Shown here: positions 895 to 61,120 of the stretch, in pieces
Layout of the letters: every line of letters begins with the position of its first letter
Position numbering within the stretch: the stretch's first letter is position 1
NCBI GenBank assembly: GCA_964016885.1
Contig: OZ024754.1
Span: forward strand, 29,884,001 to 29,948,000
DNA length: 64,000 nucleotides
Origin: Eledone cirrhosa
Lineage: Eukaryota
Direction of reading: 5' to 3'
Notes under the pieces: generated by a model
Databases searched by the model: none
What the model was told of the DNA's origin: nothing
What the model saw: only the letters and a program-made list of their open reading frames with translations
Program-made: the position numbers and the translations under genes

Positions 895-961
<67 letters not shown>

Positions 962-991
962 AGATCAAAAGATGGTTAAAAGAGTTCCAAG

Positions 992-1062
992 TATTTCATT
1001 ATGCGCATTTCAAAAACAAATATCATCATGGGATGATATCTGCGTTCTCATCAGATAAAATA
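992..1062 (-). ncRNA. Hammerhead ribozyme, mirror copy in the left arm of family A copy 1
   Basis: Reverse complement retains CTGATGA, stem II and GAAATGCGCATA; one substitution in stem I. Confidence 0.7.
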
Positions 1063-1172
1063 GGGAGACATGATATGAAGCTTAAAAAAGACTTGTGACC
1101 AGTGAAGTTTTAAATCAACATAAAAAACTTCACTGGTCACAAGTGTTTTTTAAGCTTCATATCATGTCTCCC

Positions 1173-1243
1173 TATTTTATCTGATGAGAACGCAGATATC
1201 ATCACATGATGATATTTGTTTTTGAAATGCGCATAATAAAATA
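1173..1243 (+). ncRNA. Type I hammerhead ribozyme (family A)
   Basis: Stem I TATTTTAT(1173-80)/ATAAAATA(1236-43); CTGATGA 1181-87; 16-bp stem II with one mismatch 1188-1223; GAAA 1224-27; palindromic stem III ATGCGCAT; AUA cleavage triplet 1233-35. Confidence 0.8.
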
Positions 1244-2394
1244 CTTGGAACTCTTTTAACCATCTTTTGATCTTATATTATTTATACTCCAGTCCTACAA
1301 ACTGTAGAGTGCTACTTATCCGATATTTGCATTGCTTTATTGTGCTACATTAAAACTCACCTCCTACATATATACATATATATATATACATATATATATA
1401 TATGCGCGTGTGGGTGTGTGGTTTTCCGTGTCCCGGAACATAGTGCTTCGCTAAAATAAGTACCAGGTTTTACTAAGTAAGTACTTACGTTGATATGGTT
1501 TTCTAGAATCGTTTCAGAGTTGTGCTCCAGCATGTCAGACTGAAACCAATAATAGTATAAAAGAATACTGACAAAATGTCAACGAAAACAAGAAGCTGGC
1601 TGGACGCGTGGATATTACAAACAACTATTTAATAAGCCTTGGAAGAATGGACAGAAATTTCCAAATAGAAAATAGAAGCTATCAATAACGAGCAAAAGAG
1701 CACACGAAAAGGCTGCACGCTATGTATACAGACGAAAAGACTACTGTCTATTTATGTTATTCATGTCATGGTAAATCTGATATTGATAATACCACCTCAA
1801 AACTGGCGAGCTAAGGTAGAAATTGTTCAATGGCTTAAAGGTCAACAATTTAGTCTTTCTAAGACCAAGATTAATATGGTAAAAATGAACTATTGTTATG
1901 TGGACGGAATAAGTGGCCACTTGTACGTGTACTAGAACTGTATTTCATTCAAGTGTGTAAGTTAAAAAGATTTCAGAGATGTGTCACAATGGAAGATAAG
2001 ATTGAAACGAAAACAGAATTTCCACAAGATAAACAAGTCTTACAAAGATAATCATCAACTACAAAGCGGACATAACAGTACAGAGACAGAGAAGAAATAC
2101 TTTAAGTGCGTCAACTTTAAGACTGTCAACTAGATTGGGCCTCCGTCGGTTCCAACGACGTGTGTTTCAGTTGTTCTCACAACAAAACAACCTGCCCGTC
2201 ATTAATATTATTGTGGTTGAGACGAGTGCAGCATTAATGTAGTTCTCAGGAAGATTCAGCATGACACCGTGTATGACATGACTGACTCTTTGAAATACGG
2301 GTATACCTTATGTTCTGCCTGTTGACTGGACTTGAGCGACGTGACATAAGATGTCTTTCTCAAGGACATAACATGCCACTCGAACTCACAACGT

Positions 2395-2535
2395 TCGGTT
2401 CTAGCTGTCGAAATGGCCGGAGCTGAGTCGTCGGGATCCTGACTCTTTTCCTATTACCCACTCTACTACCCTAAGTATTGAGTACTCTGGTGCATTATGA
2501 TCCACCTCGTATCTTACCACACCTTCTTTGTTATA
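2395..2535 (+). mobile_element. Short family B repeat carrying the 3' half of a hammerhead
   Basis: Related sequence in reverse orientation at 45011-45145, 49535-49640 and 59600-59760. All copies abut TA tracts. Confidence 0.6.
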
Positions 2536-2550: not shown

Positions 2551-2984
2551 ATGTAGGAGGTGAGTTTTATTGTAGCACAATAAAGCAATGCAAATATCGG
2601 ATAAGTAGCACTCTACAGTTTGTAGGACTGGAGTATAAATAATATATAAGATCAAAAGATGGTTAAAAGAGTTCCAAGTATTTTATTATGCGCATTTCAA
2701 AAACAAATATCATCATGGGATGATATCTGCGTTTTCATCAGATAAAATAGGGATACATGATATGAAGCTTAAAAAACACTTGTGAATAGTAAAGTTTTAA
2801 ATCAACATGATATGTTGATATAAAACTTCACTATTCACTATTCACAAGTGTTTTTTAAGCTTCATATCATGTATCCCTATTTTATCTGATGAAAACGCCG
2901 ATATAATCCCATGATAATATTTGTTTTGAAATTCGCATAATAAAATACTTGGAACTCTTTTAACCATCTTTTGATCTTATATTA
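2551..2984 (-). mobile_element. Fold-back family A copy 2 (opposite orientation)
   Basis: Tail at 2551-2640, then a palindrome ~2645-2984. Intact hammerhead on the - strand at 2679-2749 and a mutated mirror at 2878-2947 (+). TA flanks. Confidence 0.85.
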
Positions 2985-3047: not shown

Positions 3048-3226
3048 AATTGTTTCTACTTTAGGCACAAGGCCAGCAATTACCCAGTGCATTACTGGTA
3101 CTTTATTTTATCGACCCGGTAAGGATGAAAGGCAAAGTCAACCTCGACGGGATTTGAACTCAGATCGTAAAGGGACCTACCCATGCTGGAAAGCATGGCG
3201 TCCGACCCTCTCCCGATACTGCCAAT
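3048..3226 (-). mobile_element. tRNA-derived SINE (major family in this window)
   Basis: Minus strand has A-box-like TGGCAGTATCGG and B-box GAGTTCAAATCC, body ...GTCGATAAAATAAAGTACCAGT..., and 3' end GTAGAAACAATT. About 12 copies in the window. Confidence 0.85.
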
Positions 3227-3413: not shown

Positions 3414-7368
<3,955 letters not shown>

Positions 7369-7388: not shown

Positions 7389-8725
7389 ATGTACGTGTGT
7401 ATATATATATATATATATTTGTTTTGCAAGGTTTTTGATATGAAATCGGTTGTCGAAACAAATATTGTTATACTTGGGGAGGGTCATATTGTTGTAATAA
7501 TATTGCCAGAAATAATAACAGAACACACTCACTGTTTGGTTGGTTTTCGCTTCTGTATCTTTTATATCTCCAAAGTTCTTTCGTTGCACATCTGCAACAT
7601 CATCAGTGGTACTATTATTATGTTCCCTCCTATTGTATTGTATTGTATTGTATTGTAATGTCTACGCCATTTTTATTTTATTTATTTATTTCTTCTTGTC
7701 TCCGTCTCTGCGCATGCGTTTGTGTATGTGTATAATGTTTGGTGTGCGTGTTTGCGTTTGAGTGTATGTGTTTTGGTTTTGGGATTCTATCTCTGTTTAC
7801 TAGTGTGTTTATATGTGTTTGTTGTTCTTGTACTTGTGTATATATTTATTTATTTATTTGAACATATATATATATATAAATAATTTTACTTTTGATATTC
7901 GGCAATGCCAGCCGTAACTCGCTCGGTATGCAAATGAGGCTACTCAGCCGATGTGTACTTCAGAAAATATTATATATTTTCAACCGTTCAACAGACTGGT
8001 AATGACCCTAAAACATGTTGATTGTTTATCAAAGCCAGTGTTGAACAAACAGGTCTCGTACGTTTCGACGCAACAAAGGCATTACGTCTATTCACAGTGC
8101 GTCAATAACAGGGACGTTATTGGGGGAAAGAAAAGACAAGGAGAAGATGACGAAGAGAAAGAAACAGAAGAAAAAAAAAGAGAAGGAAAAAACACAGAAA
8201 ACATACCGATAGAGAGGGGGAAACACGTGGAGTAGCACATGTATGTATCAGTAACGAAAAGGAGAGAGTGGAAGAAGCTAAACCAGCGGACGGTTGTAAG
8301 CCATGGGACCTTATTAACAGCAAGATGGAGAGTAAAGAGAAATACGTCTGTTCGTGGCGAGGATAGGCATAAAGTTTGCCAATCCTCGCCACGTGCAACG
8401 AAAGAACTTTGGAGATATAAAGGATACAGAAGCGAAAACCAACCAAACAGTGAGTGTGTTCTGTTATTATTTCTGGCAATATTATTACAACAATATGACC
8501 CTCCCCAAGTATAACAATATTTGTTTCGACACCCGATTTCATATAATATACTCCCACTGTTTTCTGTGATGTTGTATACATTTCGTAGAAACACTTAGAT
8601 CAGTGTTTCTCAACCTTTTGACCCCCGGGCCCACTTTTAGCTCTCGAAAACAAATATATATATATATATATGCAAAACAAATATATATATATATATATAT
8701 GCACACGTACACACACACACACACA
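7369..8725. mobile_element. Family D inverted-repeat element
   Basis: 7438-7589 is inverted at 8393-8544, and 7369-7428 is inverted at about 8671-8725. A related copy lies at about 46160-46570. Confidence 0.65.
7570..7609 (-). ncRNA. Minimal hammerhead-like motif (family D)
   Basis: Minus strand reads CCA-CTGATGA-TGTTGCA GATG TGCAAC-GAAAGAACTT-TGG. The sister copy at 46311-46350 (+) has CTGACGA and an identical stem II. Stem I is only 3 bp. Confidence 0.5.
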
Positions 8726-10275: not shown

Positions 10276-10361
<86 letters not shown>

Positions 10362-10362
<1 letters not shown>

Positions 10363-11346
10363 GTGGGAAAGTAAAAAATCGGAGAATTATGTATAAAGCC
10401 GGCTATCCTGATAAAATCAAATATAGTAAAGAAACAAATTCTAGAAGAACTTACAGTAGAATAATTAATCATGATCATTCCAATAACTTTAATAAAAGAC
10501 CTAGATACAAAAACATAATCTGGTATAATGCTCCTTTCTCCATCTCTATTAATAACAATATTCCTAAATTATTCTTTAGTGCCGTAAATAAATGCTTCCC
10601 TCCCTCACATATCTATAGTAAAATATTTAACAAACACACCATAAAATTTTCTTATTCTACATCCTCCAATATTTCCAACATTATCTCTAAACACAACAAT
10701 AAAATACTAAATACTAAATCTCTTCCTTCCAACACTGAATTTCATAATAACAGTAATAGTACTCCCGACGTCATTGTAAACCCTAGGCTAATTTCTGTAA
10801 ACCCAAATACAACGTCAAACACAACTTCGCTAAATGTTCATAATCCAACTCTAAATCAAGAAACTATTATTCCTATCGCAAACAACTTCTCCAATCCAAT
10901 TCCTTCTATAGATAACACTAGGTCACTCATTAATAATCTCTCTAATTGCAACTGCCCTATTAAAAATAAATGTCCTCTCAACAACCATTGTCTTGATAAA
11001 AACTTAATTTATGAATGTAAAGTTATAACTAGCACCAATTCCTTCACCTATTTTGGCTCCACTTCCACCTCTTTTAAAGCTCGTCTCTATAATCATCATT
11101 TATCTTTTAAATACAAACTTAAAAGAACCAACACGGCTCTCTCAGAACTCATATGGTCCTTGAAAGACAAAAACATTAAATATACCATCTTTTGGAAGAA
11201 GGTTTCTGTCTAAAATCTGTAATCTCTGCCTAAATGAAAAATGTACCATTATCTCTAATCTAGATTCTATAATAAATAGACGTACAGATTTGTTTTCTAT
11301 CTGCTTGCATAAATTCCATAAAACATTTCACAAAGTATACAGCTAA
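10362..11346 (+). pseudogene. Penelope-like C-terminal region: thumb/linker plus GIY-YIG endonuclease
   Basis: [24 protein letters not shown] (CxCx5Cx5C), LIY...TYFGST...FKARLYNH. After a lesion near 11210 it continues CNLCLNEK...CLH to a stop at 11346. Confidence 0.85.
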
Positions 11347-12153
11347 TATTCAATTCTTTATCAATTTAGAATCTTTTCTCAAAGGCACATATACATACAC
11401 CTCTTTTAAAATATACCCATCTTCCTACCTTACTTCTATATACACTCTATAATACTTGTTTACTCATTACCCTCACTCTATCTTCACCTTGTAAAATCCT
11501 TCGTAACATATACATTTGTTTTGACGCCAGATTATTCATCCTTAATTTATTATTTTTTTCTCCCCATCATCTAACTCATTCTTAATACATATTAACTCTT
11601 TCTTCGCACATATTATCAATTCCTTCAATATACAAACCTTAACTTCACATTATTTTTCTCAAATCTTTCAATACACAAACCTTAATCATTTTTTCTCTTC
11701 GTTAATTTTCAAATTTCCATAATACTTGTAAACATACACACAATTTTTTTGACGTTAGAATATTCATCCGCAATTATTATTTTTTTCTCTCTATCATCAA
11801 ACTTTTTAATCTCAATACATATTAACTCCCTCTCCTTCTTCGTACATATTTTTCCCTTCGTTAATGTTCAAATTCTTTTAATTTATACATTATCTTCCAA
11901 CGGTTTTCAACCTCTCTATGTAAAACAATATATCTTTTCTCAGTTATAAAAACTATCTCTTTCTCTCTATCACCCATCTCTCCCTCTCCACCTTCACTCT
12001 CATCTCCTCCCCTTTTTTCATCCTTTCCACCCACCCCCTCTCTAAATAAAATATTTTTCCCAATATCACACATCAATCTAAAATTACTTTTCATATGTTG
12101 ATTTAAAACTGCACTATCCACAAGTGTTTTTTAGCCTTCATATAATGTCCTCC

Positions 12154-12224
12154 TGTTTTATCTGATGAAAACACAAATATTATTGCATGATGATGTTTGT
12201 TTTTGAAATGCGCATAATAAAATA
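12154..12224 (+). ncRNA. Hammerhead ribozyme in the 3' pLTR of the Penelope-like element
   Basis: TGTTTTAT-CTGATGA(12162-68)-stem II-GAAA(12205-08)-TGCGCATA-ATAAAATA. Confidence 0.8.
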
Positions 12225-12688
12225 CATGGAACTCCTTTAACCATCTTTTGATCTTATATATTATATATATATATATATATAATGCAAAAGTTCTATTTAA
12301 ATTGTTGGGATACAACAAGTAAATATATTTATAACTGATATAAAGCACTCGACAAGTATTTGGAGACCGCGGCCTTGCTGGTGTTTCATTTTCAAAGTAA
12401 TTTCCGGGACGTAAGTGAACAGCACCGGTTGGTAAGCGGTGTAGACGTATACACCGACCCGAATAAATATACACACACTTAACACCACTGAATCCACGGC
12501 CATACTGTAGCATTGACTGCAAAATAATTTGAGTCGTTCAATTCAACCCCAGTATCTTTTTCTTGTTCTTTTTCAAAGACCAATATTTGTTGCATCGACA
12601 TCTATTTGTCGAAATGCTAGGCTAGGAGACATGAACGAATTAACACCGGTTGATAAGCGGTGTGTTCACAAACAGTTGCACCCTTTTC

Positions 12689-12762: not shown

Positions 12763-12901
12763 TATATATATATATAATTGTCCTTAACACTAAGACTTAC
12801 TAAAATAATATAAACAAACCACTATCCTGATGTCCTCCAAAAGTAATGGTCGCATTTTGAAATGGTACGTCAATGGTTATTTGTAAAACTGATATATATT
12901 G

Positions 12902-12966
12902 TATTTTGTCTGATGAAGGTATACCATAGTTTGACTTGGTATCCTTGAAATATGTATAATGAAATA
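12902..12966 (+). ncRNA. Hammerhead ribozyme, separate family, in a ~230-bp insert between TA tracts
   Basis: Stem I TATTTTGT/ATGAAATA; CTGATGA 12910-16; stem II AGGTATACCA...TGGTATCCTT; GAAA 12947-50; ATATGTAT then A. Confidence 0.7.
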
Positions 12967-13027
12967 AATATGGTTTTATAAATATAGTTTCCATTTATTA
13001 ATATCGTATATATATATATATATATAC

Positions 13028-13920: not shown

Positions 13921-14041
<121 letters not shown>

Positions 14042-14269
14042 TTATTTGCCACAAGGGCGCACAAGAAATGGGACAATGCAAAGATATATGGCGGGGATTT
14101 TATATACAATCGTGTAGAAACAATTTTAACAAAAATTTCACAATCGAAATCCCCAATAGCGGGGAGACGTTACAAATGGATTGTTTTATACCCTGTAGAT
14201 AGAACAACCCTCAACTCCAGGAGCGTGTTTTGCAAGTGCTCCTTTCTTCTTTTCGCTCTCTTTCTCAAC

Positions 14270-17200
14270 TTACAGATTTATATACAAAGAAGGCCTAATC
14301 ACTCGGGCCATTCTTGCCACATTCACCCGCCTTTCAGTAAATTTACTGGGGTGCAGTACCTCTCTCTCCACTCTGATTCTCCTTCTGAAGTGGTATCAAA
14401 AGAAGGGAATGAGTTGTTGTCCGGAGAGAAAAGAATCTGTCATCAGTCCTCTCAACCTTGTCCACCATATTACCTCTTTTACCATAGCCACTATGCAGAG
14501 GAAAACCGACTCTCTTTCGTTTTTAAATGAAGGTGGCGGTTTGATCCTTACTGTGGACTCGGCAGTCAACTGTATTTGTCCCACACGCGGCAGCAGTTGT
14601 TCTGCGTAGTTCCACAGGTCAGTTACGCCCGGGCAGTGTACAATTGCGTACTAGACGGTTTCAATGTCCCGCTCGCATCTTGGACACGTCCTCTTTGAAG
14701 GATCCCTGCCAGGTCATCCGTGCCTGTAGATCTTGTCACGTACTGGTAGAGCTCCTCGGTAGCACTGCCAGGCCAGGGACTTTTGGAAGTTGTCCATAGG
14801 TTCTGGGCGGAAAGTCCTACCGAACAGACCGGTCAGCTCGTCTTCTTCGACGCCCAGAGTCTCTCCGAGAACGTCGTCGCACTTACACCGTGCTAACCCT
14901 CTATAGAATGACGAAGTGGAGTCTCCACTGTTTGATGTGCCCGATTGATAGAGGACTGTGAGCGCCTGAGCGCATTCGATGTGAAGGCGCCCAATTTCTT
15001 CGGTCTCTGCTTGATGCAGGACTGCAGCTCTGTCAGCGAGACAATGTGCGGAAAGGTTTGTCTTACAAATGGGGCCCACACCGGTTGGTCGGTGAGAAAT
15101 ACCTGGAGATGCCGTAGCCTCAGAGCGTGTTTGTGCATCATCAGCCACGGCATTCCCAGCCCTCTGTTGGAAAGGTGCTGGCAGCAGACGGATCTCCTCA
15201 CCAGTAGAGCCTGCTTCTTCCAAAGGAATTGGAAAAGCATGCGTTCTATTTTGGTGAGGTTTTCACGGGGACAAGGCTCGACGGTCAAGAGGTAGTAGAT
15301 TACGGACGCTATGAAAGTGTTCGCCACCTCCGCTCGACCTTTCAAGGATAGTTTGCACTCTGCCCACTTCTGAGTGAGCACAAATACCTTGGCGGTGACG
15401 TCGTTCCAGTTTTTCTCCACCTGGTGACCCCGAGCAATTTCACCGGTCCTTCCGTCCAGCGTACGACAACGCTGTCGGACGGCATCGGTTTGCCTCTCCA
15501 CATTCAGAGTTGCAAACCGACAGACTTGTGCGGGTTTAGTTTTGCTCCTGTAAGCCTTTCGTATTCCTTCAGTAAGTTGCCAATCGCACCAATTTCCGAT
15601 GTTTTCGACACCATTACTGTCATGTCGTTTTCGCAGTCCCGTTCCAATGAGATACCCTGCGAAAGCTCCAGCTTCCGCAGTAGTGGCTCGAGAGTCAGAA
15701 CATACAGAATGGAGGAGAGAGGGCATCCCTGTCGGATGGAACGCACTGATAGGTGATTCGGAACGGCTCCGATAGGTAGCCGTTCACCTTGACTATCGAG
15801 CAGATGTTGGTGTGCATGGCTGTGATCCAGCTTCTGAAGACGGGTCCGAAACCGGCCGCCTTGAGAACTGCTTCCAAGTATCGATGGTCGACCCTATCAA
15901 AAGTCTTAGACTGATCTAAATTGATCAGAGCCCCACCGAATACGGGTTAACACCCCACTCTCTCTATGATGTATCGTATGGGGTGGAGGTTGTCGTGTAT
16001 GGACCTGGTTAGGATTGCACACGTTTGTGCTTTTCCCACCAGGTTATCGACGGCAAGCGCCAGCCTTGTTGCTAGCACCTTGGTCAACAACTTTTACTCT
16101 GTGTTTAGGATAGTTATGGGCCTGAAATTGGATATTTCGTCGCCTTTGTTCTCGTCTTTCCTGATCAGCGTTACTACGCCCCTGCCTAGAAAACTAGGAA
16201 TTCTCCTGTTCTGCTGCTAGTTGCAGTAGACGTCTTCGAGGACGCCAGAAAACAACTCCGGCATGCCTATGTAAAACTCATAAGGTAGACCATCTAGACC
16301 GGGTGATTTGCGTTTCCCGCAGCGCCCTAGAGCGTCCCGTATCTCAGCCGCTTTGATCTGTCTTTTGCAGAACTTCGTGGTTCGCCGTCGAGGTATGAAC
16401 TGAAGTCCATTGCTTCGTCCGGCGCTCCGCTCTTCCCGAACAGTTGCACAGAGTGCTGCTGAAAGGCCGTGCACTTCTGCTTGGAATCAAGTAGCACGCG
16501 TCCGTTTTGGTCTTTCAAAGACAGAATCGTAGACTTGTTGCCACTTTTCGCTTCTGCCACTCGGGCCCAGCTAACAGATTTTTCTCCCTCGTTTCCTAGA
16601 GCACGTGTTCTACTCCTGACAACGCAGCCTTCGTGTTTCGCATCGAAGAACTGGTCCAGTGCCGTTCTCGTTGCTAGCACGCTAGCTGCGTTACCATTCC
16701 TAAGCGCCTCTTTTATTTTGGCTATCAGTTCTTTTTTCTGTTTTATCTTTTTCTAGAGCTAGTTCTTCGCTAAAAGCTATGGACTCTAATCTAATTGCTC
16801 TCTTGAGAGAGCACCACCACCTATTGTTGACGATGTCTCCCGTCAACTGGTGCTTAACTAAACTACTTATCCGTCTCTTGTAGACTTTACGCATCGGTAA
16901 CGACATGTTCAGCTTCCAGTATCCGGGTTCCTGTCTATGCGTTCTATCATGGTTGACTATGCAGGTGACTAGTTTGTGGTCCGAATAGGCAACCATGTAC
17001 ATTTGCGGACAGCTTAACATTTTCTTCTCTCTCTCTCTAATTATGAATCTGTCTAAATACGATCTAGATGTCCCACTGCGATTTGTCCATGTCCACTGTG
17101 GTGCAGTTGGGAAATCTAGTCTATACCTATCGGCCAGTTGGAATCGGCCGATTAAATTTTTGAGGTTGTTGCACCCCCTCCCCTCTATTGAGACACGTTC

Positions 17201-17661
17201 CTACATGGTCCCAACGTGCATCCAATATACCATTCCAGTCTCCCCACTAAAAGCAAGGAGCAAGACGTTCCCAGAAAGGACTCTAGACGCTTGAAGAATC
17301 CTGGTCGCGATGACCCAGTCGGGGCATAAACGGCCATCAGTGTGAAGGCTCCACCTTCACCACTGTTCACGTCTAGGACCACCAGTCTATCCTCCGGGTC
17401 CAAGTATATTTGCTGTATCTCGAGGTCCAGGTTTTTCCGAAACAAAACAACCACTCCCTCTCCAGCTCCTGGCTGACAGAGAGATGCGTAAATCTCAAAG
17501 TCATCAAAGATGGGGATTAGTTGCTGCTTGTTGTGGATCCTGAACTCGCTGATGGCTATCACATCCATATCATGTGACCTTAGGTCATTTAAAAGTTGGC
17601 CCTGTTTCCAGGGCATCCCTAGGCTATGCACATTCACACTTCCAACTCGTAAATTTGCCAT
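14270..17661 (-). pseudogene. ORF2 (APE endonuclease-reverse transcriptase) with multiple frameshifts and stops
   Basis: MANLRVGSVNVHSL, VYAP, YSDHKLV, GYWKLN, KSPGLDGLPYEFY, IRQGCPLS, LSLKGRAEVAN spread across frames. Confidence 0.9.
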
Positions 17662-17700
17662 GTTGGTGGAGAAGAGTTGGAGAAAGACGAAAAGATGCAC

Positions 17701-19445
17701 TTACCTTTTCGTTTCCTGGAGATCGGGTTGTTCGATCTCTATTTGGGTGCTGTTCGGGTGTTGGGTCGGGTGAGGAAACATTTTAATAGGACTCTGTTGA
17801 TGGGTTTTTGACAAGGGTTTCCAACGTCCTGCGAAAATTCGTCTTTCAGTCTGTTGTAGGTTTCTATTGTAACCCTTATCCTCTTCAGGTGTGGTGCAGT
17901 GTCTGATTTTGTGAAAGTTTTCTCCTCGGTTTCCACTTTGGGGTCTTTGGAGGTGACCTCCATTAGGTTTTTGTTTTTTGTGTTGATGTATACGTACTGT
18001 TGTTTGGATTTTTGTTGTGTTGTTTTTGTTTGTTGTTTGTATTGTAATTTTCTTTTGATGGTGGGCATTTGTGTTTGGGGTGGTGTTGGTGTTTGTTTTG
18101 CTGGTAGGAGGGGTTTTGATTGTGGTGTTTATTTGTGTTGTTTGTGTTGGTGGTTGTGTGTTTGTGTTGGTGGTTGGTGTTTTTGTGGTTTTGCGGTGTC
18201 TTTTTTTAATTTTTTTTATTTCTGAGGCTATCCTTCATCTTCGCTTGAGGATGGAGAGGTAGTCTCGTCTGATGAGTCGTCATCATGGGTGTGTAGGAGG
18301 GGTATGTTGTGTGGCGATGGGGTGTTTGTATGTGTGGTTGTGGTAGTGTTGTATGGAGTGTTGGATGGAGTAGGATGGGTGGGACTGTATTTTTCAGGGG
18401 AATTGTTTGTGTTTTTTCTGTTGTTTGTGGTTGTGCAGTTGTTGGTTTTTGTGTGTTGCTTGTTTTGTGTTGTTGTTGTTGGTGTGGTTTTGGTGGTGGT
18501 GTTGGTAAAAGTACTTTTAAATGTGATGTACTGAAGCATTTAAAACAATGTGACCTCCATCATTCTGTCGAAATGTGTATATAGTTGGTGTCGTCTACTG
18601 GCACTCTTTCTGGGATTTTCGAAATTCTTTCTGGTCTCATTTGGACCAGAATTTCCAAACTTGTGTCATTCCATGTGTTTCTTGTGGATCTTTTTATGGA
18701 AAGGATGGTGTCTTCTTCCTCCACCAAGAACCCTGCCAGAATCCACCAAATATTAATATTTGGTGGTATGTTGGTAATATTTATTTTTTGTGTCCTTTTT
18801 CCCATGTATGTAGGGAAAAAGGTGTATTTAGCAGAGGTGGCCGGGGTCACCGAGTATTTTTGTGTAAGGGCCTCGCTTTTGAAAAGCACCGAAATGCTTC
18901 CATATTGTTTGGCCCTCTGGATGAAATCAATGTCCGGCGTAGACTCCTTCAAGACAGTTTTAATTTCGCCTTGAGTGAGGAATGTCGTTTTTTTACTGTG
19001 TTTGTGGTCTTACGAAGTGTGTCAACCCTAATTTGTGGGGGAGAAGTAATTCTACCCCCCCCCCCCCCCCACACACACACACCTTTTTCTCTTCAAAAAT
19101 GATGCGCTTCTTCCCTTCATTGATAATTTCTTTCGCATTAGAAATGTCCAAGTGGGTGAACTTTTGCTTGCTAGCTGCTGTCTCAGCGAAAGATTGTTTA
19201 TGGTTGCTGTTGTTGTTGTCCTCAATTGTTGTTTCATTTGTGGTGGTGGAGTTTATTAGTTTAGTTGTCGTGTTGTCTTTTTATTCAGTGATTATTGGTG
19301 TAGGTTGTGTAACAATATTTTTTTTACGAAAATTGTCCATGTTTGTAACAGAAGTTTCGTAATGGTAAAGTTTACTATCCCTTCCCTACTTGTAGTAGCA
19401 GTTGGTAATGGCGTCGTTGCTGGCGTTTGTGTTTCGTTATTCATA
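17701..19445 (-). pseudogene. Tx1 ORF1 remnant
   Basis: FFPTYMGKRTQKINITNIPP is homologous to ORF1 of the second copy. Thr/Asn/Gln-rich low-complexity tracts. Boundaries approximate. Confidence 0.75.
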
Positions 19446-19644
19446 TTGTTTGTGATGTCCCCTAAGGAAGCGAAAAATGAAATGACCCAGCCGCTGACAA
19501 TTCAGACGGAGAGTCAATCTACAAAATAATACTTTTCAGCAGAAAATTTCGTTTTTTTTGCATATAAATAAGGCAAAAACTTACCAGCGAGAGTGGTACG
19601 CGTCCTCTATTATCCTCTACTATAGGTAGATAGATAGATAGATT

Positions 19645-19687
<43 letters not shown>

Positions 19688-19688
19688 T

Positions 19689-19736
<48 letters not shown>

Positions 19737-19995
19737 TGTTTCTATATTAGCCACAGGGGCACAAAAGAAGGGGACAAATACAAAGGGGGAAGTTTACATA
19801 CAATAAAAACGTGTAAAATGTTATCACAAATGCAATTTAAAAAATTAGTCGATTTTCCCCAATAGGGGAGACAGTTCATATGGGTAACACATACCCCCGA
19901 AAAAATGTGCAACCCTCATCTCCAGGAGTACGAAGAGTTTGTACTCCTTTCCTCTCCTCCTCCTTTTCCTCCTCCTTTTCCTCAACCTACAGGCT
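19737..19995 (-). mobile_element. Tx1 3' UTR fragment
   Basis: Nearly identical to 20054-20300 and 24661-24908; GATA on both sides. Confidence 0.9.
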
Positions 19996-20033
<38 letters not shown>

Positions 20034-20290
20034 GAGATAGATAAATAGATAGATTTCTTTATTAGCCACAGGGGCACACAAGAAGGGGACAAATACAAAG
20101 GGGGAAGTTTACATACAATAAAAACGTGTAAAATGTTATCACAAATGCAATTTAAGAAGTTAGTCGATTTTCCCTAATAGCGGGAGACAGTTCATATGGG
20201 TAACACATACCCCCTAAAAAATGTGCAACCCTCAAGTCCAGGGGTACGAAGAATTTGTACTCCTTTCCTCTCCTCCTCCTTTTCCTCAAC

Positions 20291-22366
20291 CTACAGGCTG
20301 TTATAGAGAGAAGGCCCATTCACTCGGGCCATTCTCGCCACTTTTACCCACCTTTCATAAAACTTTCTGGGGTGCAGCATCTCTCTCTCCATCCTGATTC
20401 TTCTTCCAAAGTGGTATTTGAAAAAAAGAATCAGTTGTTGGCCGGAGAGAAAGGTGTCTGACCTCAGCCCTTTCAACCTTGTCCACCATACAACCTCTTT
20501 CGCCATAGCTATCACACAAAGGAAAACCGCCTCTCCTTCGTTTTTGAAGGAGGGTGGCGGTTTGAGCATGACAATGGACTCGGTGGTCAACCGGATTGGT
20601 CCCACCCGCGACAATAATCGTTCTACATAGCCCCTCAGGTCAGTGACGTCCGGGCAGTGTATGAGTGCGTGCGCGACGGTTTCTTCGTTACGCATGCACC
20701 TCGGACAGATCTTTTTTGCAGGGTCCCTGCTCGGGCACCCATGTCTGTAGAGCTTGTCTCGAACTGGTAGAGCTCCTCGGTAGTACTGCCAGGCAAGGGA
20801 CTTTGGGAAGTTGTCCATCGGTCCCGGGCGGAAGGTCCTACCGAACAGACTGGCCAGTTCATCTTCCTCTACGCCTAGAGTTTCACCGAGCGCGTCGTTG
20901 CACTTGCTGCGGATCAACCCTCTATAGAATGACGAAGTGGAGTCTCCACTGATCGCCAGGTCCGTCAGCCAGAGGGCTGTGAGCGCCTGAGCACATTCGA
21001 TATGCCAGTCGCCCATTTTCCTCGGTCTTTGCTTGACCCAGGACTGCAGCTCGGTCATCGAGACGAGTCGTGGGAAGGCTCGCCTCACGAACGGGGCCCA
21101 CACCGGTTGTCCGGTGAGGAATACGTAGAGATGCCGCAGCCTGAGCGCGTTTTTGCGCATCGTCAACCACGGCATCCCCAGCCCTCCGTTAGAAGGGTGT
21201 TGGCAGAAGATGGATCTTCTCACCAAAGGAGCCCGCCTCTTCCAAAGGAATTGGAAGAGCGCGCGTTCCATTTTGGCGAGCGTTTTGGCTGGACAAGGCA
21301 CGACGGTCAAGCGGTAGTAGATGGCAGACGCTATAAAAGTGTTCGCCACCTCCGCTCGACCTTTCAAGGATAGTTTGCACTCGGCCCACTTCTGGGTGAG
21401 TGCAAACACCTTGGCCGTCACTTCGTTCCAGTTCTTCTCCACCTGGAGGTCCGGACCAAACCAGACCCCGAGCAGCTTTACCGGTCCTTCCGTCCAGCGT
21501 CCGACGACGCCATCGGAAGGCATCGGTTTGCCTCTCCACGATCCGAGTTGCAAACCGATGGACTTGTCCCGGTTCAGCTTCGCTCCTGTGAAACTTTCGT
21601 ATTCCTTCAGTAAGGTGCCGACTTCCTCGATTTGCGAGGCGGTCGACACCATTACTGTCACGTCGTCGGCGTAGTCCGACGCCGCTTTCCGCAGTCCCGG
21701 TTCCAGAGGGATGCCCTGCAATAGCTCCAACTTCCGCAGTAGTGGCTCGAGAGTCAGTACGTACAGAAGGGGGGAGAGAGGGCATCCCTGTCGAATGGAT
21801 CGTGTAATATGGAACGGCTCCGAGAGCTAGTCGATATCTATCGGCCAGGTCAAATTGGTCGATTAACTGTTTGAGGCTGTTACACCCCCCTTTATCGGGA
21901 CATGCTCCCACATAGTCCCAACGTGCATCTAGGATTCCATTCCAGTCCCCCACTAAAAGCAAGGAGCGGGACGTTCCCAGAAAAGTCTCTAGACGTTTGA
22001 AGATGTCTGGTCGCGGTGTCCCGGATGGGGCATATGCGGCCACCAGCCTGAACGCTCCACCTTCACTACCGTCAACGTCTAGGACCACCAGTCGACCCTC
22101 CGGGTCCAGATGTACCGGCTGTGTAACGAGGCCCAGGTGTTTCCACAGCAAAACGGTAACTCCGCCCCCACCCCCGGTTGACAGAGAGATGCGTAGATCT
22201 CAAAGTCATCGAAGATGGGGGCCAGCTGTCGCTCGCTGTGGATCCTGGACTCGCAAATGGCTACCACATCCATACTGTGCGACCTGAGGTCGTTTAAGAG
22301 TTTGCCCTGTTTCCAGGGCATCCCCAGGCCGCGTACGTTCACACATCCAACTCTTATATTGGCCAT
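20291..22366 (-). pseudogene. ORF2, internally deleted
   Basis: MANIRVGCVNVRGL...LLVGDWN...; YADD; CPRCMRNEETVAHALIHC zinc finger; 479-aa open C-terminal part 20291-21730. Confidence 0.9.
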
Positions 22367-22401
22367 GTTGGTGCTGAAAAGTTAAAAGAGGAAAAGAGAT
22401 C

Positions 22402-24325
22402 ACTCACCCTTCGTCTCCTGGGGACCAGGCCGCACGATTTCCATGGGGGTGTTGGAGGGGTTGTCTGGATGGGTGGTGGTTTCCGGCGGGGTGGGGACGG
22501 AGATGTTTGGTGGGGTGGGGTCTGGTGGGATGGGGGTGTCTGGGGTGGGGAGACATTTGAGAAGGACGCGGTTAAGTGGTTTCACGCAGGAATTCCCCAC
22601 ATCCTTCTCAAATGTTTCTTTTAGGGACCTATAAGTTTGTATAGGGACCCTAATCAGTTTTAGGTTCAGTTTTTTGTTATTTTTAATAGAGTGGGCGAAA
22701 GTTTTCCCTTCGGTTTTCACCGAAGGGTCGTTCGTGATTTGTCTCCATTAGTGTTTTGTTTTCAGTGTTTATGTAAGTGTAATTTTCTTGTGTTGTGTTT
22801 GTTTTTGTCTGTAGTTCTTGTGTGTGCTTTCGTTTTGTTGTAGGTATTTTGTTTTCAGGAGGTGGGGGTCTTGTTTGTGATGTTTTTGTTGTTTGTGTTG
22901 GTGGTTGTATGTTTGTGGTAGTGTTTGCTGTTTTTTTGCTTTTGTGATGTCTTTTCTTTCTTTTCGAGCGATGGGGTTCTCCCTCGTCTTCACTGGGTGA
23001 TGGCGAGATAGCCTCATCTGTTGTCTCGTCTGTGTGATTGGGGAGGGGTATGTCTTGGGGAGCTGTTGTGTCTGTATGTGATTTTGCAGTGTTTTTAGGT
23101 GGAGTGGGGTTGGGTGGGACTGTGTTTGTTGTGGTTATTTTTGTGTGTTGGTGTTGTTGTTGTTGTGGTGGTGTTGGTGGTTGTGTTGTTTTGATGGGTG
23201 TCGGCAGAAGAGCCTTTTTTTATTCATTAATTTAGGACAGGAAGCCCTCAGGTGACCCCTGCTAAAGCAATGGTAACATGAAGGCCGCCTACCCTCAACC
23301 GAAAATTTTATGTAGGTGAGTCCGTCCAGGAGTACGCGTTGTGGGATCATAGCTATTCGCTCTGGGCTCATTTGCACCAGAACTTCAATGCTAGTCCCAT
23401 CTCTGGGGGACTTTCCTAGTGACAGTATTCTGTCTTCATCAAAATTGATGAAGCCGCACAGCATCCACCATATGTTCACCTTTGGTGTGACACGAGTGAT
23501 TTTGATCTTTTGTGTTCTTTTTCCCATGTATCTAGGGAAAAAGGTGTACAGGTTGGATACAATTGGCGACACAGAGTAATTTTGGGCCGTCAATTGATCC
23601 TTCATGAGTACCGAAATACTCCCAAAAAGTTTGCTTCTTTGAATGAATGCAATATCATTCATTGAATTTTTGAAAACCAGTTCAATTTTTCCCTGTGACA
23701 ATTGGACTGGTTTTCGGGTAGAATTGGAAACTGTCCTAAAAACTATCGTTTTGAGAGCAGTTTCCTTGCGAATTTCTACCGGAGAATTGATGCTGAAAGC
23801 ACCATTTTTTTCGAAAGTGACATATCTCCTAGCGTCCTTTAAAAGTTGTTCAGCATTTGTTATGTCGAGATATGTCAGTTCCTCCTTTTTCTGAACTGTC
23901 TGTGCAAAGGAGATTTTTGGTTTCTTTGTGGAATTATCCGTGTTGGTGGCGTTGTCATTATTGTTGTTATTGTTGTTGTTATTCTTGTTGTCACCGATGT
24001 TGATATTATTCGTATTTTCCTTGGTGTTGGTGTTGGTGTTGTTGTTGTCTTTAATGCTGGTGTTATTGGTGTTGTCTTTATTTTTTTCTTTGTTGTTGTT
24101 ATCATTGTTGTTTTTATCATCATTATTGGTGTTGCTGTTATTTTTGTTGTCATTGAACTGTTTGGTGTCATTTGTGTTTGAATATGAATTTGTTTTTACA
24201 TTTTCATTTCGTCTTTCCATCTCTATTGTATCTATTGAGAAGGAAAGGGAAGAAGACGATGTTTACTGCGAGCTTTGTAGTCTTACCGACTCTCCACCAC
24301 CATTATCGTTGGACGCAGCGTTCAT
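22402..24325 (-). pseudogene. Tx1 ORF1 (gag-like CCHC knuckle, Asn-rich N-terminus), frameshifted
   Basis: CYHCFSRGHLRASC (Cx2Cx4Hx4C) in ORF 23135-24220. Confidence 0.85.
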
Positions 24326-26867: not shown

Positions 26868-29300
26868 TAGATTGGGTTGTTGTTTATCCCCGCTTTACAG
26901 TCATATATGAGCATTTATCTTGGCCAAACTCCATTCCTATATTCTTTGAGAGGTCAAGATTTTTCTTCATCCCATCCATGTTCTTGGCATAGAGTTTCAG
27001 ATCGTCCACAAAGAAATTATGGGTTAGGTTCGTATTTCTGTCCTCCCGTGAGCCAATGATGTATCCCTCACATTTCTTGAGCAGAAAGGACAAGGGGTTT
27101 AATGACAAGATGAATAATATCACAGAAAGACTGTCCCCCTGAAATATACCCCTGCAATAAGTGAAAACAGAGTCCTCCCTCTCTGTCTTTAACCTTAGGA
27201 TAGTAGCCCAAGAAGAAGACAGCCTCTCTATGGCTCTAACAATAATGTCTGGGACTTTAACAAGTTGGAGGGCCTCTATCATCCAAGAGTGGGAAACAGA
27301 ATCGAAAGCGTTCCTGTAGTCCAGCCAGACTGTAGCCATATTCCTCCTAAGTTGTCCCACCTCCGACATCGCAGTTTTGTTGATTAGGAGTTGTTCAGCA
27401 CATCCCCAAACCCCTTTCTTTCCAGCTGCTTGTTCATCTGTGATGATGTTATTATTTTCACAGTGATCTTGGAGGAATAGATTCAGGCTGTATACATCTT
27501 ATACATCAGGTTCTGGCATGTAATGGGTCGGTAGTTTTTTGCCAAGTGGGTGTCTTTACTCTTGGGGGCCAGTAATGTTTTTGCTAATGTCAACCATTCT
27601 GGTATAAGTGTAACTCCCTTAAGAACTTGTTGGTAGAGGTCAGTAAGATACCTCCGATAGAATATCAGCTTTTTGTACCAGTAGCCGACAATCATGTCTC
27701 TTCCTGGTGTTTTCTTATCTTGGAGTTTTCCTATCACAGTCGCAAGGGTACCCATACTTACTTCGTATGTTTTTGTTGTAGTGTAGGAGCAATATTTCTT
27801 TCGGATTTCTTTTAGCCACACTGCATCTTGGTTGAAATTCTTCTTTTCACCCCATATTTTTCTCCAAAAGGAATCTATGTCTTTCTGGGATGGGGCCTCA
27901 GTGACACTTATTATTTTGCCCTTCATATCTCTATAGACTGATGTTTGGTTTCGTCTGAATCTTTTATTAAGCACTTTTCTTTCATCTATCTTCTTCAGGT
28001 ATCGGTGTTTTTCGCTAACAGCTCTCAATTCTTGTTTGAGGGTGATCAGCTTATATTGAAGAGTTCTGGTTCTACTGTTACCAAACATCGTCTCTATTTT
28101 ATTGTTCACTCTTTGTTGGTGAGGAGTGAGTTTTTTTTGTGTTTGTTTGCATGTAAGGAGCATTATCACATGTCCTATGGTTTTTCGTAGGTCAGCAATC
28201 TTTTTTTCTATTTTAGTTATATATGATGGTATTTTTGGTGGTGTTCTGTTCTTGTTAATATCTCTGCTATCACCAAGATAATGCTTCACTGTCGTTGCTA
28301 AGGCATATAAACAGGCTTTGATTTGCCAAAATGTTGGGGTTTTTATCCGTCGTAAATATTCATCCCCTATTTCGTCAATAACACGTAATATTTCATTATT
28401 TGTTTTTTTATTAAATATTGTCGTTTTAACACGTTCAGCAAGAGAGATATTTATACATGAATTAATATCTCTCTGGAAGATTTCGTTGAGGGAAATTTTC
28501 AATTGTTTATACTTTTGATTATTATCATTATCGATAGTATTTTCCACAACAGTCGAGGTAGACTCGGATGGTACACGTGGCGTCAAATTTCTTGGATTAT
28601 TATTATTATCGATAGTGTTTTCCCCAGCATTCGAGGTAGACTTAGATGGTACAGGTGGTGTCAAATTTCTTACAGGCATAGTTGTTTCAAGGCGCTGTTC
28701 GACCTGGCTACTAGGAAGTCTAGTAGCATGGCGACATGTAGCACGTATGGTTGATCCCATGTTTGTTGTGGGGGACTTACAATTAATACTATTTATCTTA
28801 TTGTTACGTTCAACAAACGTCGCTTGTTGGCGTAATTGTTTCGCTGTGAAATAATTTAGCTCTGGATGCATTTCGTCCCAGTGTAGCTTCATTCTATTCA
28901 TATAGCCAATGGAGGGATTGTGTTTTGCCATTTTATAACAATTAAATAAATCATTATTAAGTTCGCACTTCCAAGAGAAATGCGATTTATAATTTCGGTT
29001 TCTTCTGTAGCTACAACTGAATAAAGTTTGTTTACCTTTCTTGTTGTTTGTCTTCGATACTTCCTTAATTTTGTTGTTGTGTTCAGCCATGCTGTTTGTA
29101 GCAAATCCTTGTAAAATGAATTATGTATTTAGTCGGATATCTCTACGAATTCGAATAAAAGGTGTCTTCAGAAGATATAGTTAGAAGAATAACCAGTTAT
29201 TCAACATGTCTGTAGTTGTGCATTACTGTCGGAGATAGTATTCATCTTAAATTTAATAAATAGTCTCCTACGCCAAAATATGCGACTGGTCGCGTTGACT
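26868..29300 (-). mobile_element. R4/Dong-like RLE non-LTR element, 5' portion with RT (3' end missing)
   Basis: KNYRPITCQNLMYK, frameshift near 27483, EQAAGKKGVWGCAEQLLIN, WLDYRNAFDSV, GIFQGDSLS, FFVDDLKLY. (TATG)n on both sides. Confidence 0.85.
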
Positions 29301-29322
29301 GTATCGTATGTATGTATGTATG

Positions 29323-29890
29323 TTTTCTCTTTCTCTTAATTTCGAGTATATTTTTTTGACCGGCCACCTTCCTGGTGGCAAGGTTGTAAAAGAAAAGAAA
29401 TTGTCATCCCTTGAATCGCAAGAATGTTTTGCATATTTTGAAGGTGCCAGCTATCGCAGCCATTTGTAGACTATGAATTAGGGAGCTGCGCTTTTTGTCC
29501 GCAAATCCAAGTTCGGTCATACTTTGGTCCAAGCGGGTTGGTATATAACCCGTAGCACCAATAATGATGGGTATGAAGCTAAAGGTGTATCTTGGATACT
29601 GGATTTGTAAGCTCCTCATCAATGGTCCGTAGATGTCCTCCTTCTCCTGTATTTTTCTGACAACGTTTACATCAAGTGGGCAGCTGATCTCCACAACAGA
29701 ACACGTTTTCAATGTGTGGTCCCAAACTACAATATCAGGCCGGTTGTGCTTTAATTTGGTGGCAGTTTTTATTTTCAGGTTCCACCAGTATTCCTTAGTG
29801 CCATCTGTCTCAATATATTCTTCCTCGTTTGTTGTTAATTTTGTTTTCCGAAGTGCGTTCCAGATAGTTCTAGCTATCCCATCGTGTCTC

Positions 29891-29892
<2 letters not shown>
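29323..29892 (-). mobile_element. R4/Dong-like 3' end with restriction-like endonuclease
   Basis: RHD motif and KHNRPDIVVWD...VVEISCP (PD-(D/E)xK type). Stop at 29404, short 3' UTR running into (CATA)n; (CATA)n also at the 5' junction. Confidence 0.85.
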
Positions 29893-29921
<29 letters not shown>

Positions 29922-29960
29922 TGTATGTATGTATGTGTGTATGTATGTATGTATGTTATG

Positions 29961-33497: not shown

Positions 33498-33501
<4 letters not shown>

Positions 33502-34190
33502 CAACCAGAGACCATTGACCATATAATTTCAATGTGCAGTCCTATAGCTCCAACCGAATACCTAAACAGGCATGACAGAGCTGCACAATACATACATTGG
33601 ATAATGTGCAAGCATTTTGACCTGCCCCATCAAAAGAATTGGTGGGAGCATCAACCACCTCCCATACTTGAAAAAGATCACATCTCAATCTTGTGGAACT
33701 TTAGCATCCAAACAGACCGAAAAATAGATGCAAATAGACCTGATATAATATTGAAGGACTTTCAAAGGAGGGTATGCCTGCTAATTGATATGTCTGTTCC
33801 AATAGACAAGAATGTATCTATAAAAACATTTGAAAAATTGAGCAAGTATAAGGACCTGGAGATAGAAATTGGAAAAATGTGGAAATTGAGAACTAAAACA
33901 ATACCAGTGGTTGTAGGCGCTCTGGGAATGATACCTAAGGGGTCTAACGACTACTTATCGCAAATCCCAGGAAACCCGCGTATAGGAGAAATACAAAAGA
34001 TAGTACTAATGGGAACTGCCCATATACTAAGGAAGATCCTGTCAATATAAGTACATCACAAGTCTAAACACTAAGGATGCATGTGTGAATATGTGTGTTC
34101 TTTCTTGAACATGGCGGACCTTGTTGTCTCTTGAGGTCACTGGTTGTGACTTGGTGATAACTCGTATAAACATAAAGCAAGATAAATGCA
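33498..34190 (+). mobile_element. Dong-like (R4 clade) 5'-truncated RLE element in (TAA)n
   Basis: ETIDHIISMC...YLNRHDR...ANRPDIILKD...LIDMSVP, stop at 34050. (TAA)n at 33438-33497 and 34191-34223. Dong elements are known TAA-repeat specialists. Confidence 0.85.
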
Positions 34191-44636: not shown

Positions 44637-44710
<74 letters not shown>

Positions 44711-44769
44711 GTTGTTGTTGTGTTACGTAATTGCAAAGGAAACAGAGTGCGCTATGTATAGAAAAGAGC

Positions 44770-51360: not shown

Positions 51361-51426
<66 letters not shown>

Positions 51427-51432
51427 CAGTAT

Positions 51433-51620: not shown

Positions 51621-52042
51621 TAATATAAGATCAAAAGATGGTTAAAGGAGTTCCATGTATTTTATTATGCGCATTTCAAAAACAAACATCATCATGCAAT
51701 AGTATTTGTGTTTTCTATAGATAAAACAGGAGGACATGATATGAAGGCTAAAAAACACTTGTGGATAGTGCAGTTTTAAATCAACATATGTTGATTTAAA
51801 ACTGCACTATCCACAAGTGTTTTTTAGCCTTCATATCATGTTCTCCTGTTTTATCTGATGAAAACACAAATATTATTGCATGATGATGTTTGTTTTTGAA
51901 ATGCGCATAATAAAATACATGGAACTCCTTTAACCATCTTTTGATCTTATATTATGTATACTCCAGTCCTACAAACTGTAGAGTGCTTCTTATCCGATAT
52001 CTGCATTGCTTTATTGTACTACAATAAAACTCACCTCCTACA
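51621..52042 (+). mobile_element. Fold-back family A copy 4 (spacerless palindrome plus tail)
   Basis: 167-bp arms 51621-51787 and 51788-51954 centred on CATATG; tail 51955-52042. Intact hammerhead 51847-51917; the mirror copy has a mutated core. Confidence 0.9.

Positions 52043-54255: not shown

Positions 54256-54312
<57 letters not shown>

Positions 54313-54675: not shown

Positions 54676-54737
<62 letters not shown>

Positions 54738-61084: not shown

Positions 61085-61120
<36 letters not shown>

What the first reader, a model, noticed from the sequence alone, without database searches (positions are those of the whole stretch)
10361..12258. Physical link between fold-back family A and a Naiad-type Penelope ORF
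The GIY-YIG remnant runs through a 3' UTR into exactly one arm of family A (12092-12258, nearly identical to 51785-51954), without the tail. The CATATG at 12092, followed by TTGATT, is the centre of the spacerless palindrome at 51787/8. The copies at 1.1 kb and 2.8 kb turn around at almost the same place. A recurrent turn-around point at a short palindrome in the parent suggests programmed hairpin priming rather than random truncation.
Basis: partly seen in the sequence, partly recalled or inferred. Interest (0 to 1): 0.8.

Follow-up and report, generated by a model that had tools for sequence, protein, structure and literature searches.

The report
Hydra-clade Penelope spawns ribozyme fold-backs
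The stretch is the broken 3' end of a Penelope-like retrotransposon with Hydra-clade (not Naiad) motifs, whose last 167 bases recur in the window as small head-to-head palindromes carrying a predicted hammerhead ribozyme; these likely arise when one RNA is copied from two start sites up to its fixed 5' end, which would refine a known but unexplained structure.

Summary
Observation confirmed. 12092-12258 is 98.8% identical to 51785-51951, lacks the 87-nt tail, and all three palindromes turn at parent 12092-12105. Reads show the UTR-arm link in many copies.

The label is wrong. The endonuclease is C-terminal, with CxCX5C and no CCHH: Hydra clade, not Naiad. The arm holds a hammerhead-like motif. 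The tail carries a hairpin found after the ribozyme in 11 of 11 relative families, so it is likely the start of the parent's 5' UTR.

Hairpin priming was already proposed in 2013, and the data here lean against it. CATATG leaves no loop. In 2 of 3 palindromes the tailed arm is the shorter one. Reads join 12093 directly to an inverted tail. Other inversions are scattered.

Best model (inferred): 12093 is the RNA 5' end; two cDNAs primed either side of the hairpin run to it and are joined. Central deletions after insertion could mimic part of this. No genome or RNA data were available. New family of a known kind, with a testable mechanistic lead.

The parts
10361..10393 (.). 33-nt cap between (TA)n and the ORF remnant; not the sequence that other copies have here; origin unexplained
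   Evidence: 244 and 139 reads have other letters before 10394; no match elsewhere in the window
10395..11213 (+). 5'-truncated ORF remnant: end of RT thumb, linker, first part of GIY-YIG endonuclease; stop at 11211-11213
   Evidence: fold search top 9 rows all GIY-YIG nucleases but E>=0.2
10713..10946 (+). 78-residue Asn-rich linker (18 Asn), much longer than in most relatives; covered by reads of other copies
10947..10973 (+). CxCX5C linker motif, the Hydra-clade form
   Evidence: definition
11004..11060 (+). GIY-YIG-like core (LIY...YFG), one Cys only between the motifs, so no CCHH
11212..11346 (+). rest of the endonuclease in another frame: CxxC, E, N, CxH, stop
11347..12091 (+). pyrimidine-rich 3' UTR (24 G in 743 nt) with an internal 110-nt degenerate repeat
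12092..12258 (+). family A arm = pLTR-type 3' end, tail-less, followed by (TA)n; 12093 is the inferred RNA 5' end
12154..12224 (+). predicted type I hammerhead ribozyme: core 12162-12168, long stem II, palindromic stem III 12208-12215, cut after 12216
   Evidence: motif scan; pairs; not found by Rfam
51624..51787 (-). 51.8-kb palindrome, tail-less arm (ribozyme core disrupted)
51788..51951 (+). 51.8-kb palindrome, tailed arm
51955..52041 (+). 87-nt tail with conserved hairpin at 51960-51987, ending at (TA)n
958..1122 (-). 1.1-kb palindrome, tail-less arm, reaches parent 12094 (subfamily B)
1124..1367 (+). 1.1-kb palindrome, tailed arm starting at parent 12105; tail 1281-1367
2553..2808 (-). 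2.8-kb palindrome, tailed arm reaching parent 12095; tail 2553-2639
2809..2981 (+). 2.8-kb palindrome, one extra G (2809) then tail-less arm from parent 12093

Best explanation
The locus is a 5'-truncated Penelope-like element with Hydra-clade motifs, ending in the same 167-nt arm that forms the family A palindromes, and those palindromes likely form by twin priming on one RNA with an inferred fixed 5' end at 12093. Shown: domain order, shared arm, two kinds of 3' end (42 and 132 nt after the predicted ribozyme cut, both in (TA)n), one tailed and one tail-less arm per palindrome, recurrent inner end. Inferred: the RT-endonuclease binds the conserved hairpin at the start of the tail, nicks both strands of a (TA)n target and primes one cDNA just upstream of the hairpin (tail-less end) and one at the tail tip. 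With no RNase H (recalled) the RNA survives and can template both. The first cDNA runs off the 5' end; the second stalls early, stops at the first start site, or displaces through to near the 5' end. The two cDNA ends are then joined; ends stopping at 12093 finish in self-complementary ATAT and would give the spacerless CATATG centre by themselves. Short transcripts starting in the arm make family A a non-autonomous passenger. Identity about 0.9; mechanism about 0.55.
For: Clade. Two defined RT start sites bracketing the tail and extension of both target strands are shown in vitro for another Penelope (PMC11167929). Arms of one palindrome are each other's nearest in subfamily B (3 and 5 differences within, 6-10 between; shared private changes), as expected if made from one template. 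The tail-less arm reaches further 5' in both asymmetric family A copies and, by the position of stem I, in the 44.8-kb fold-back; a fold-back copy cannot hold a tail its longer template lacks. 255 and 144 reads have loose ends before 12093 whose consensus is the inverted tail (30/30 to the tail-arm border in X22, 26/30 to the tail tip in X21). Depth rises 3- to 10-fold across 12089 in 4 of 4 runs. 12093 is the A of TCA, and the 2.8-kb copy has an extra G before it; an extra G marks capped full-length L1 insertions (PMC11702581). Two unrelated loci of a relative family (L028, L029) start within 2 nt of each other at TCATT with no palindrome. The 6-mer gives no hairpin (0 kcal/mol) but a -6.2 kcal/mol self-duplex. 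Tail-less ends in 6 of 7 relatives measured lie 29-43 nt after the cut.
Against: No RNA data show a start at 12093; the extra G is one base in one copy and could be a C-to-G change. Small asymmetric central deletions are the usual fate of palindromes (PMC8701086) and could make the 1.1-kb and 2.8-kb asymmetries and the tail-plus-arm reads. Those reads come from RAD-seq and may be few loci; their far ends are unseen. No strand-change joint at 12092-12105 is among the 15 of 30 joints shown, so the palindromes were not counted genome-wide. In L017 and L045 the tailed copy is the long one, and the main L080 element is tail-less at both ends. L082 and L025 begin exactly at the tail start, so that site may be an endonuclease cut site rather than only a priming site. 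Arm-to-arm gene conversion also gives nearest-neighbour arms. By sequence alone the family A hairpin scores weakly (11-12 bits, outside the top 25 window sites). The ribozyme has no compensatory pairs and no Rfam hit.
Confidence: 0.55

Rival explanations
1. Programmed self-priming (first reader; Arkhipova 2013): one cDNA, or an antisense RNA, folds back at the short palindrome, is copied into the inverted arm, and the endonuclease trims that arm at the tail start.
For: Spacerless centre at 51787/8 and near-spacerless centres at 1.1 and 2.8 kb; palindromes at pLTR 5' ends in rotifer Penelopes; nearest-neighbour arms; L082/L025 suggest cutting at the tail start.
Against: No loop is possible in CATATG. 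Tailed arm is the shorter in 2 of 3 copies. 12093 is a breakpoint without fold-back in 399 reads. 0 of 15 hand-picked inverted junctions in relatives has a spacerless palindrome arm over 3 nt, and inner ends lie 0.9-3.3 kb apart (four are one family, several sit at contig starts and may be amplification chimeras). Four fold-backs of other families have 7-71 nt spacers.
Confidence: 0.2
2. Founder effect: one palindromic insertion arose once, was amplified whole as a non-autonomous element, and gene conversion between arms plus central deletions made the present pattern. The shared turn point then says nothing about mechanism.
For: Only three copies in two subfamilies were read; arm depth far exceeds ORF depth; central deletions are common in palindromes.
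Against: No left-with-left clustering of arms. Both subfamilies, about 13% apart, turn at the same place, and a diverged contig (14 other letters in 115, about the subfamily B distance) bridges the UTR-arm junction (record 8). The one-tail plan recurs in unrelated families.
Confidence: 0.2
3. The link is an accident of this locus: half of an unrelated fold-back element landed after the UTR.
For: The arm begins exactly at the palindrome centre; the UTR is unusually long.
Against: Reads and 68 contigs with a variant at 12084, and a contig bridging 12058-12172; the arm has the ribozyme-plus-end spacing of Hydra-clade pLTRs and the tail their hairpin.
Confidence: 0.03

Closest known systems
Hydra clade of Penelope-like elements, e.g. 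Hydra-1_Obim, Hydra-2_Amil (Craig et al. 2021, PMC8557442)
   Same: C-terminal GIY-YIG, CxCX5C linker, no CCHH, CxxC and CxH around E and N, hammerhead near the 3' end, (TA)n targets; an inverted 5'-truncated copy is noted for Penelope-13_HM.
   Different: A different family by eye from the published Hydra-1_Obim; 78-residue Asn-rich linker, 745-nt UTR; abundant ORF-less palindromic derivative, which the text and tables I read do not describe.
Naiad clade (PMC8557442)
   Same: GIY-YIG, (TA)n preference, tandem/inverted pLTR structures, tails.
   Different: Endonuclease N-terminal with CCHH, no canonical hammerhead; none of these holds here.
Adineta vaga Penelope families (Arkhipova et al. 2013, PMC3846280)
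   Same: Inverted pLTR next to direct pLTR, optional tail on one end, palindromes at the junction, Asn-rich insert between RT and EN; self-priming proposed.
   Different: Low copy, different clade; 31-nt tail overlapping the ORF start, against an 87-nt tail with no conserved start codon here.
Poseidon element PAc of Anolis (Frangieh et al. 2024, PMC11167929)
   Same: Two RT start sites bracket the tail, at a stem-loop downstream of the hammerhead; AT-rich cleavage on both strands.
   Different: Poseidon clade, start sites inside the ORF; the two of four parts I read do not model the inverted arm.
Non-LTR retrozymes (bioRxiv 10.64898/2026.07.22.740005; part 1 of 5 read) and non-autonomous Chlamys such as MRC1
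   Same: Short non-autonomous PLE derivatives; retrozymes carry a type I hammerhead.
   Different: Head-to-tail tandem units, not head-to-head pairs.
L1 twin priming (passages in bioRxiv 10.1101/2024.12.14.628481)
   Same: Two primings on one RNA give a 5' inversion.
   Different: In L1 the second primer anneals at variable internal sites and arms do not overlap (recalled); here both start sites look fixed and the arms can overlap fully.

Membership tests
Naiad PLE | GIY-YIG N-terminal to RT | tested here: not met
   Endonuclease is the last domain before stop and UTR; in 19 of 19 homologues of 640 aa or more YRDD precedes the endonuclease CxxCxxE
Naiad PLE | CCHH motif with two Cys between GIY and YIG | tested here: not met
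   one Cys between LIY and YFG
Naiad PLE | No canonical hammerhead | tested here: not met
   full type I motif in 6 of 7 arms, though not scored by Rfam
Naiad PLE | DKA motif, IFD, CxC linker | not testable with these tools
   RT core is missing from this copy; homologues have DKT/DKS in 17 of 19
Hydra-clade PLE | C-terminal GIY-YIG endonuclease | tested here: met
   fold search rows 1-9 are Hpy188I, T4 EndoII, I-TevI, none significant; Pfam blank
Hydra-clade PLE | CxCX5C linker | tested here: met
   10947-10973; in 104 of 152 homologues
Hydra-clade PLE | CCHH absent; CxxC and CxH flank catalytic E and N | tested here: met
   11212-11346, same pattern as the paper's alignment
Hydra-clade PLE | Canonical hammerhead near the 3' end | tested here: met
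   motif level only; 97.8% of cells paired, six subfamily differences all keep a pair, none compensatory; cleavage untested
Hydra-clade PLE | Insertion into (TA)n | tested here: met
   all seven arm or tail ends run into (TA)n
Hydra-clade PLE | RWK and DKT motifs; RT phylogeny | not testable with these tools
   RT absent in this copy; RW[KRE] in 11 and DK[TS] in 17 of 19 long homologues; no tree with reference elements was built
Hydra-clade PLE | Short element, generally under 3 kb | tested here: inconclusive
   full length unknown; long UTR and insert suggest about 3.4 kb (inference)
Non-LTR retrozyme | Tandem head-to-tail hammerhead units | tested here: not met
   3 of 3 ORF-less copies are head-to-head
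MITE / foldback DNA transposon | Terminal inverted repeats ending symmetrically, derived from a transposase element | tested here: not met
   one end has an 87-nt tail; arms derive from a retroelement 3' end

The most novel reading that the evidence does not exclude
Hydra-clade Penelopes carry a clade-wide 5' UTR hairpin (RCTC-stem-2-nt bulge-GAGCACT) that positions a dimeric RT-endonuclease to prime two cDNAs from one RNA, either side of the hairpin; run-off at the capped 5' end and end-to-end annealing build the inverted pLTR, the one-sided tail, and a class of abundant non-autonomous ribozyme-bearing palindromes that masquerade as MITEs and could feed the high double-stranded RNA load reported for octopus.
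Probability: 0.3. Interest if true: 0.7.

Novelty: new member of a known kind. Interest (0 to 1): 0.42.

Why it matters
How Penelope-like elements make their inverted pLTRs and one-sided tails is still described as undefined (PMC8557442). This family offers a short, abundant natural substrate with two fixed 3' ends, a recurrent inner end and a conserved hairpin, so twin priming and self-priming give different, countable predictions. It also warns annotators that such palindromes are retroelement products, not DNA-transposon MITEs. The element class, the structure and the self-priming idea are all already published, which caps the interest.

Tried and rejected
Whole genome: none held, so the genome-wide breakpoint plot could not be made. 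Exact arm patterns in metagenome, prokaryote-genome and viral contigs: 0 matches. Viral contigs for relatives: 24 pattern matches, 0 confirmed. Earlier findings of the scan: none. Sequencing runs: no RNA holder listed, which says nothing on expression. Pfam: 0 families for 3 window proteins; RVT_1 in 2 of 9 aligned homologues. Rfam: no hammerhead at gathering score in the window or among 18 weak matches on the arm. Free-energy folding of arm+tail is not unusual (z -0.78). Shuffle control for ribozyme pairs is uninformative (291/500). The 222/100000 shuffle figure for the tail hairpin is not an independent test, since the pattern was written to admit the family A form; the profile built from relatives alone is the fair one. 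The tail as ORF start: rejected, ATG only in 1 of 3 tails. Repeat finder output was swamped by microsatellites. Library artefact as the source of tail-plus-arm reads: considered unlikely because skipping a hairpin removes both arms, not one; not tested. Print searches for a description of such palindromes or of the hairpin showed none in the listings, but Repbase, Dfam and subscription journals are not searched, and only parts 2 and 52 of 59 plus passages of the PMC8557442 supplement were seen.

Full report
1. Observation. The window is AT-rich animal DNA full of microsatellites; it looks cephalopod-like to me, which is recall and untested. No whole genome was held. BLAST of 10361-12258 against the window gives six other arms: 51785-51951 (98.8%), 51790-51624 (97.0%), 2808-2645, 2810-2981, 1122-958 and 1124-1277 (83-89%). 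They form three head-to-head pairs, each with an 87-nt tail on one arm and (TA)n at both outer ends. The ORF copy ends tail-less in (TA)n. Inner ends all map to parent 12092-12105. The description is accurate.

2. The ORF. One frame runs 10395-11213 and the endonuclease finishes in another frame at 11212-11346. phmmer found 4690 relatives at E<=0.001. All 19 of the 152 fetched proteins that are 640 aa or longer have the RT YRDD upstream of the endonuclease. Craig et al. (PMC8557442; parts 1, 2, 4, 5 of 10 read) define Naiad by an N-terminal endonuclease with CCHH and no canonical hammerhead, and Hydra by a C-terminal endonuclease, CxCX5C, no CCHH, CxxC and CxH around E and N, a hammerhead and (TA)n targets. 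The remnant has the Hydra pattern at each testable point. The AlphaFold model (mean pLDDT 71) ranks GIY-YIG nucleases in rows 1-9 of the fold search, none significant. A second Hydra-type ORF with RWK and DKT lies at 61361-63498.

3. The arm is a pLTR. A motif scan finds a type I hammerhead in 6 of 7 arms, cut after 12216, with the small palindromic stem III described for PLE ribozymes (PMC4209133 passages). Six subfamily differences at paired positions all keep a pair, but none is compensatory and the shuffle control is flat; Rfam does not score it. It is a prediction.

4. The link is a family feature. Laying two RAD-seq runs and two contig sets on 10361-12258 covered 30 of 30 bins in all four runs, with many variant sites in ORF and UTR. 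A variant at 12084, 8 nt before the arm, is in reads from 33 and 31 start places and 68 contigs. One X1 contig spans 12058-12172 with 14 other letters, about the subfamily B distance; an X4 contig from another organism runs 11877-12118 but has only 27 letters on the arm side, under the tool's bridging rule. Depth rises across 12089 from 154 to 721 (X21), 152 to 693 (X22), 359,009 to 1,174,253 (X1) and 38 to 361 (X4). The tool warns that depth is no copy number, and RAD-seq samples few loci.

5. The tail. Of 82 Hydra-type loci fetched, 16 have a ribozyme upstream of the ORF; for the 13 printed the cut lies 88-170 nt before the likely start codon. A hairpin GCTC-stem-bulge-GAGCACT begins 37-54 nt after the cut in 15 of 16 loci, 11 of 11 families, often twice; the strict form occurs in 44 of 82 loci on the sense strand against 2 hits on the other. 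All three family A tails have ACTC-stem-TA-GAGTGCT at +51 to +53, a G-C to A-U change in the outer stem. A profile from relatives alone ranks them outside the top 25 window sites by sequence but 5th, 6th and 8th among sites with both stems paired, so the match rests on position and structure. Tail-less ends fall just before the hairpin: +42 here, +29 to +43 in 6 of 7 relatives measured, the seventh being a tailed end at +106.

6. The turn-around. For a fixed point: three copies within 14 nt, the depth step, and loose ends before 12093 in 255 and 144 reads (24 of 904 loose-end rows were shown). Those loose ends are not the inverted arm but the inverted tail: X22's consensus equals the tail-arm border of the 1.1-kb copy at 30 of 30 letters, X21's equals the tail tip at 26 of 30 with the other four letters from the X22 type (compared by eye). 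That the consensus abuts the listed place is supported by the 10394 loose ends, which continue the reading frame into the motif seen in relatives. Against a single programmed point: opposite-strand joints at 11274/12055, 11439/11619 and 11628/12156, truncations at 12189 and 12197, and no strand change at 12092-12105 among the 15 of 30 joints shown. Palindromes amplify poorly in PCR (PMC8701086 passage), so that absence is uninformative. In relatives 0 of 15 chosen inverted junctions is a spacerless palindrome. Two fold-backs in L080 and two more families in this window (44.8 and 54.4 kb) repeat the one-tail plan with spacers of 7, 60, 71 and 48 nt.

7. Mechanism. Arkhipova et al. (PMC3846280, passages and Discussion) already read junction palindromes as self-priming. 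Frangieh et al. (PMC11167929, parts 1-2 of 4) showed two RT start sites bracketing the tail, extension of both target strands and a predicted dimer. Here CATATG cannot close a loop but two cDNA ends can pair; ends stopping at 12093 would overlap by ATAT and generate the 51.8-kb centre without needing the parent's C. In both asymmetric copies the tailed arm is shorter, which a single fold-back cannot give unless a later deletion intervened. 12093 is the A of TCA, preceded by an extra G in the 2.8-kb copy, and L028 and L029 show a fixed 5' start at TCATT with unrelated flanks and no palindrome. I favour twin priming on one RNA with run-off at its 5' end (0.55) over self-priming (0.2) and founder amplification with conversion and deletion (0.2). 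L017, L045 and the main L080 element do not follow the same asymmetry, and every step from RNA start to joining is inferred.

8. Novelty. The clade is known, including from Octopus; inverted pLTRs with a one-sided tail are the textbook PLE structure. My searches (listings and the passages named above) showed no description of abundant ORF-less hammerhead palindromes of this clade or of the 5' UTR hairpin, but repeat databases and most of one supplement were not seen. Octopus has an unusually high share of long dsRNA-forming loci (PMC5625713 passages); a contribution from these elements is a guess. Verdict: real, new member of a known kind, interest 0.42.

Noticed in passing
window 61120-63498: Second, unrelated Hydra-type element, nearly full length, one frame break, RWK/DKT/YRDD/CxCX5C; its 5' UTR holds the best-scoring copies of the conserved hairpin (61174, 61307); no 3' ribozyme seen.
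   Followed up: partly
window 44700-45000 and 54300-54680: Fold-backs of two other families with one tailed and one tail-less arm; the tails carry hairpin variants; 44894 has a hammerhead motif whose stem I lies in the spacer.
   Followed up: partly
window 12780-12980 and 51422-51590: Short (TA)n-flanked pieces with hammerhead motifs (cores 12910, 51439); 12902-12969 weakly matches the family A model (E 0.002).
   Followed up: no
window 2393-2529, 45014-45141, 59600-59736: Dispersed 135-nt repeat carrying the same hairpin type (2460, 45085, 59669); possibly another Hydra-derived short element.
   Followed up: no
window 3518-4007 / 6718-7207; 7438-7589 / 8393-8544; 48964-49076 / 49403-49515; 53344-53606 / 53914-54176: Further near-perfect inverted pairs (98-100%) with spacers of 0.3-2.7 kb, some next to (TA)n.
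   Followed up: no
window 10361-10393: 33-nt cap at the truncated 5' end that other copies lack; could be an inverted second cDNA or a deleted piece of upstream ORF.
   Followed up: partly
L082:3883 and L025:about 990: Full-length Hydra-type copies that begin right at the tail start after (TA)n, like one permuted monomer; fits a circular template or endonuclease cutting at that site.
   Followed up: partly
L080, L081, L082: Contigs filed as bacterial MAGs hold animal-type Penelope elements and (TA)n; L080 and L082 look like host contamination.
   Followed up: no
window 3049-3226 and about nine other places: Abundant 180-nt dispersed repeat family at 85-97% identity.
   Followed up: no
window 14041-24262, 26884-29955, 33499-34050: Other retroelement ORF remnants: a duplicated LINE-like element and further non-LTR fragments (labels from recall).
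   Followed up: no
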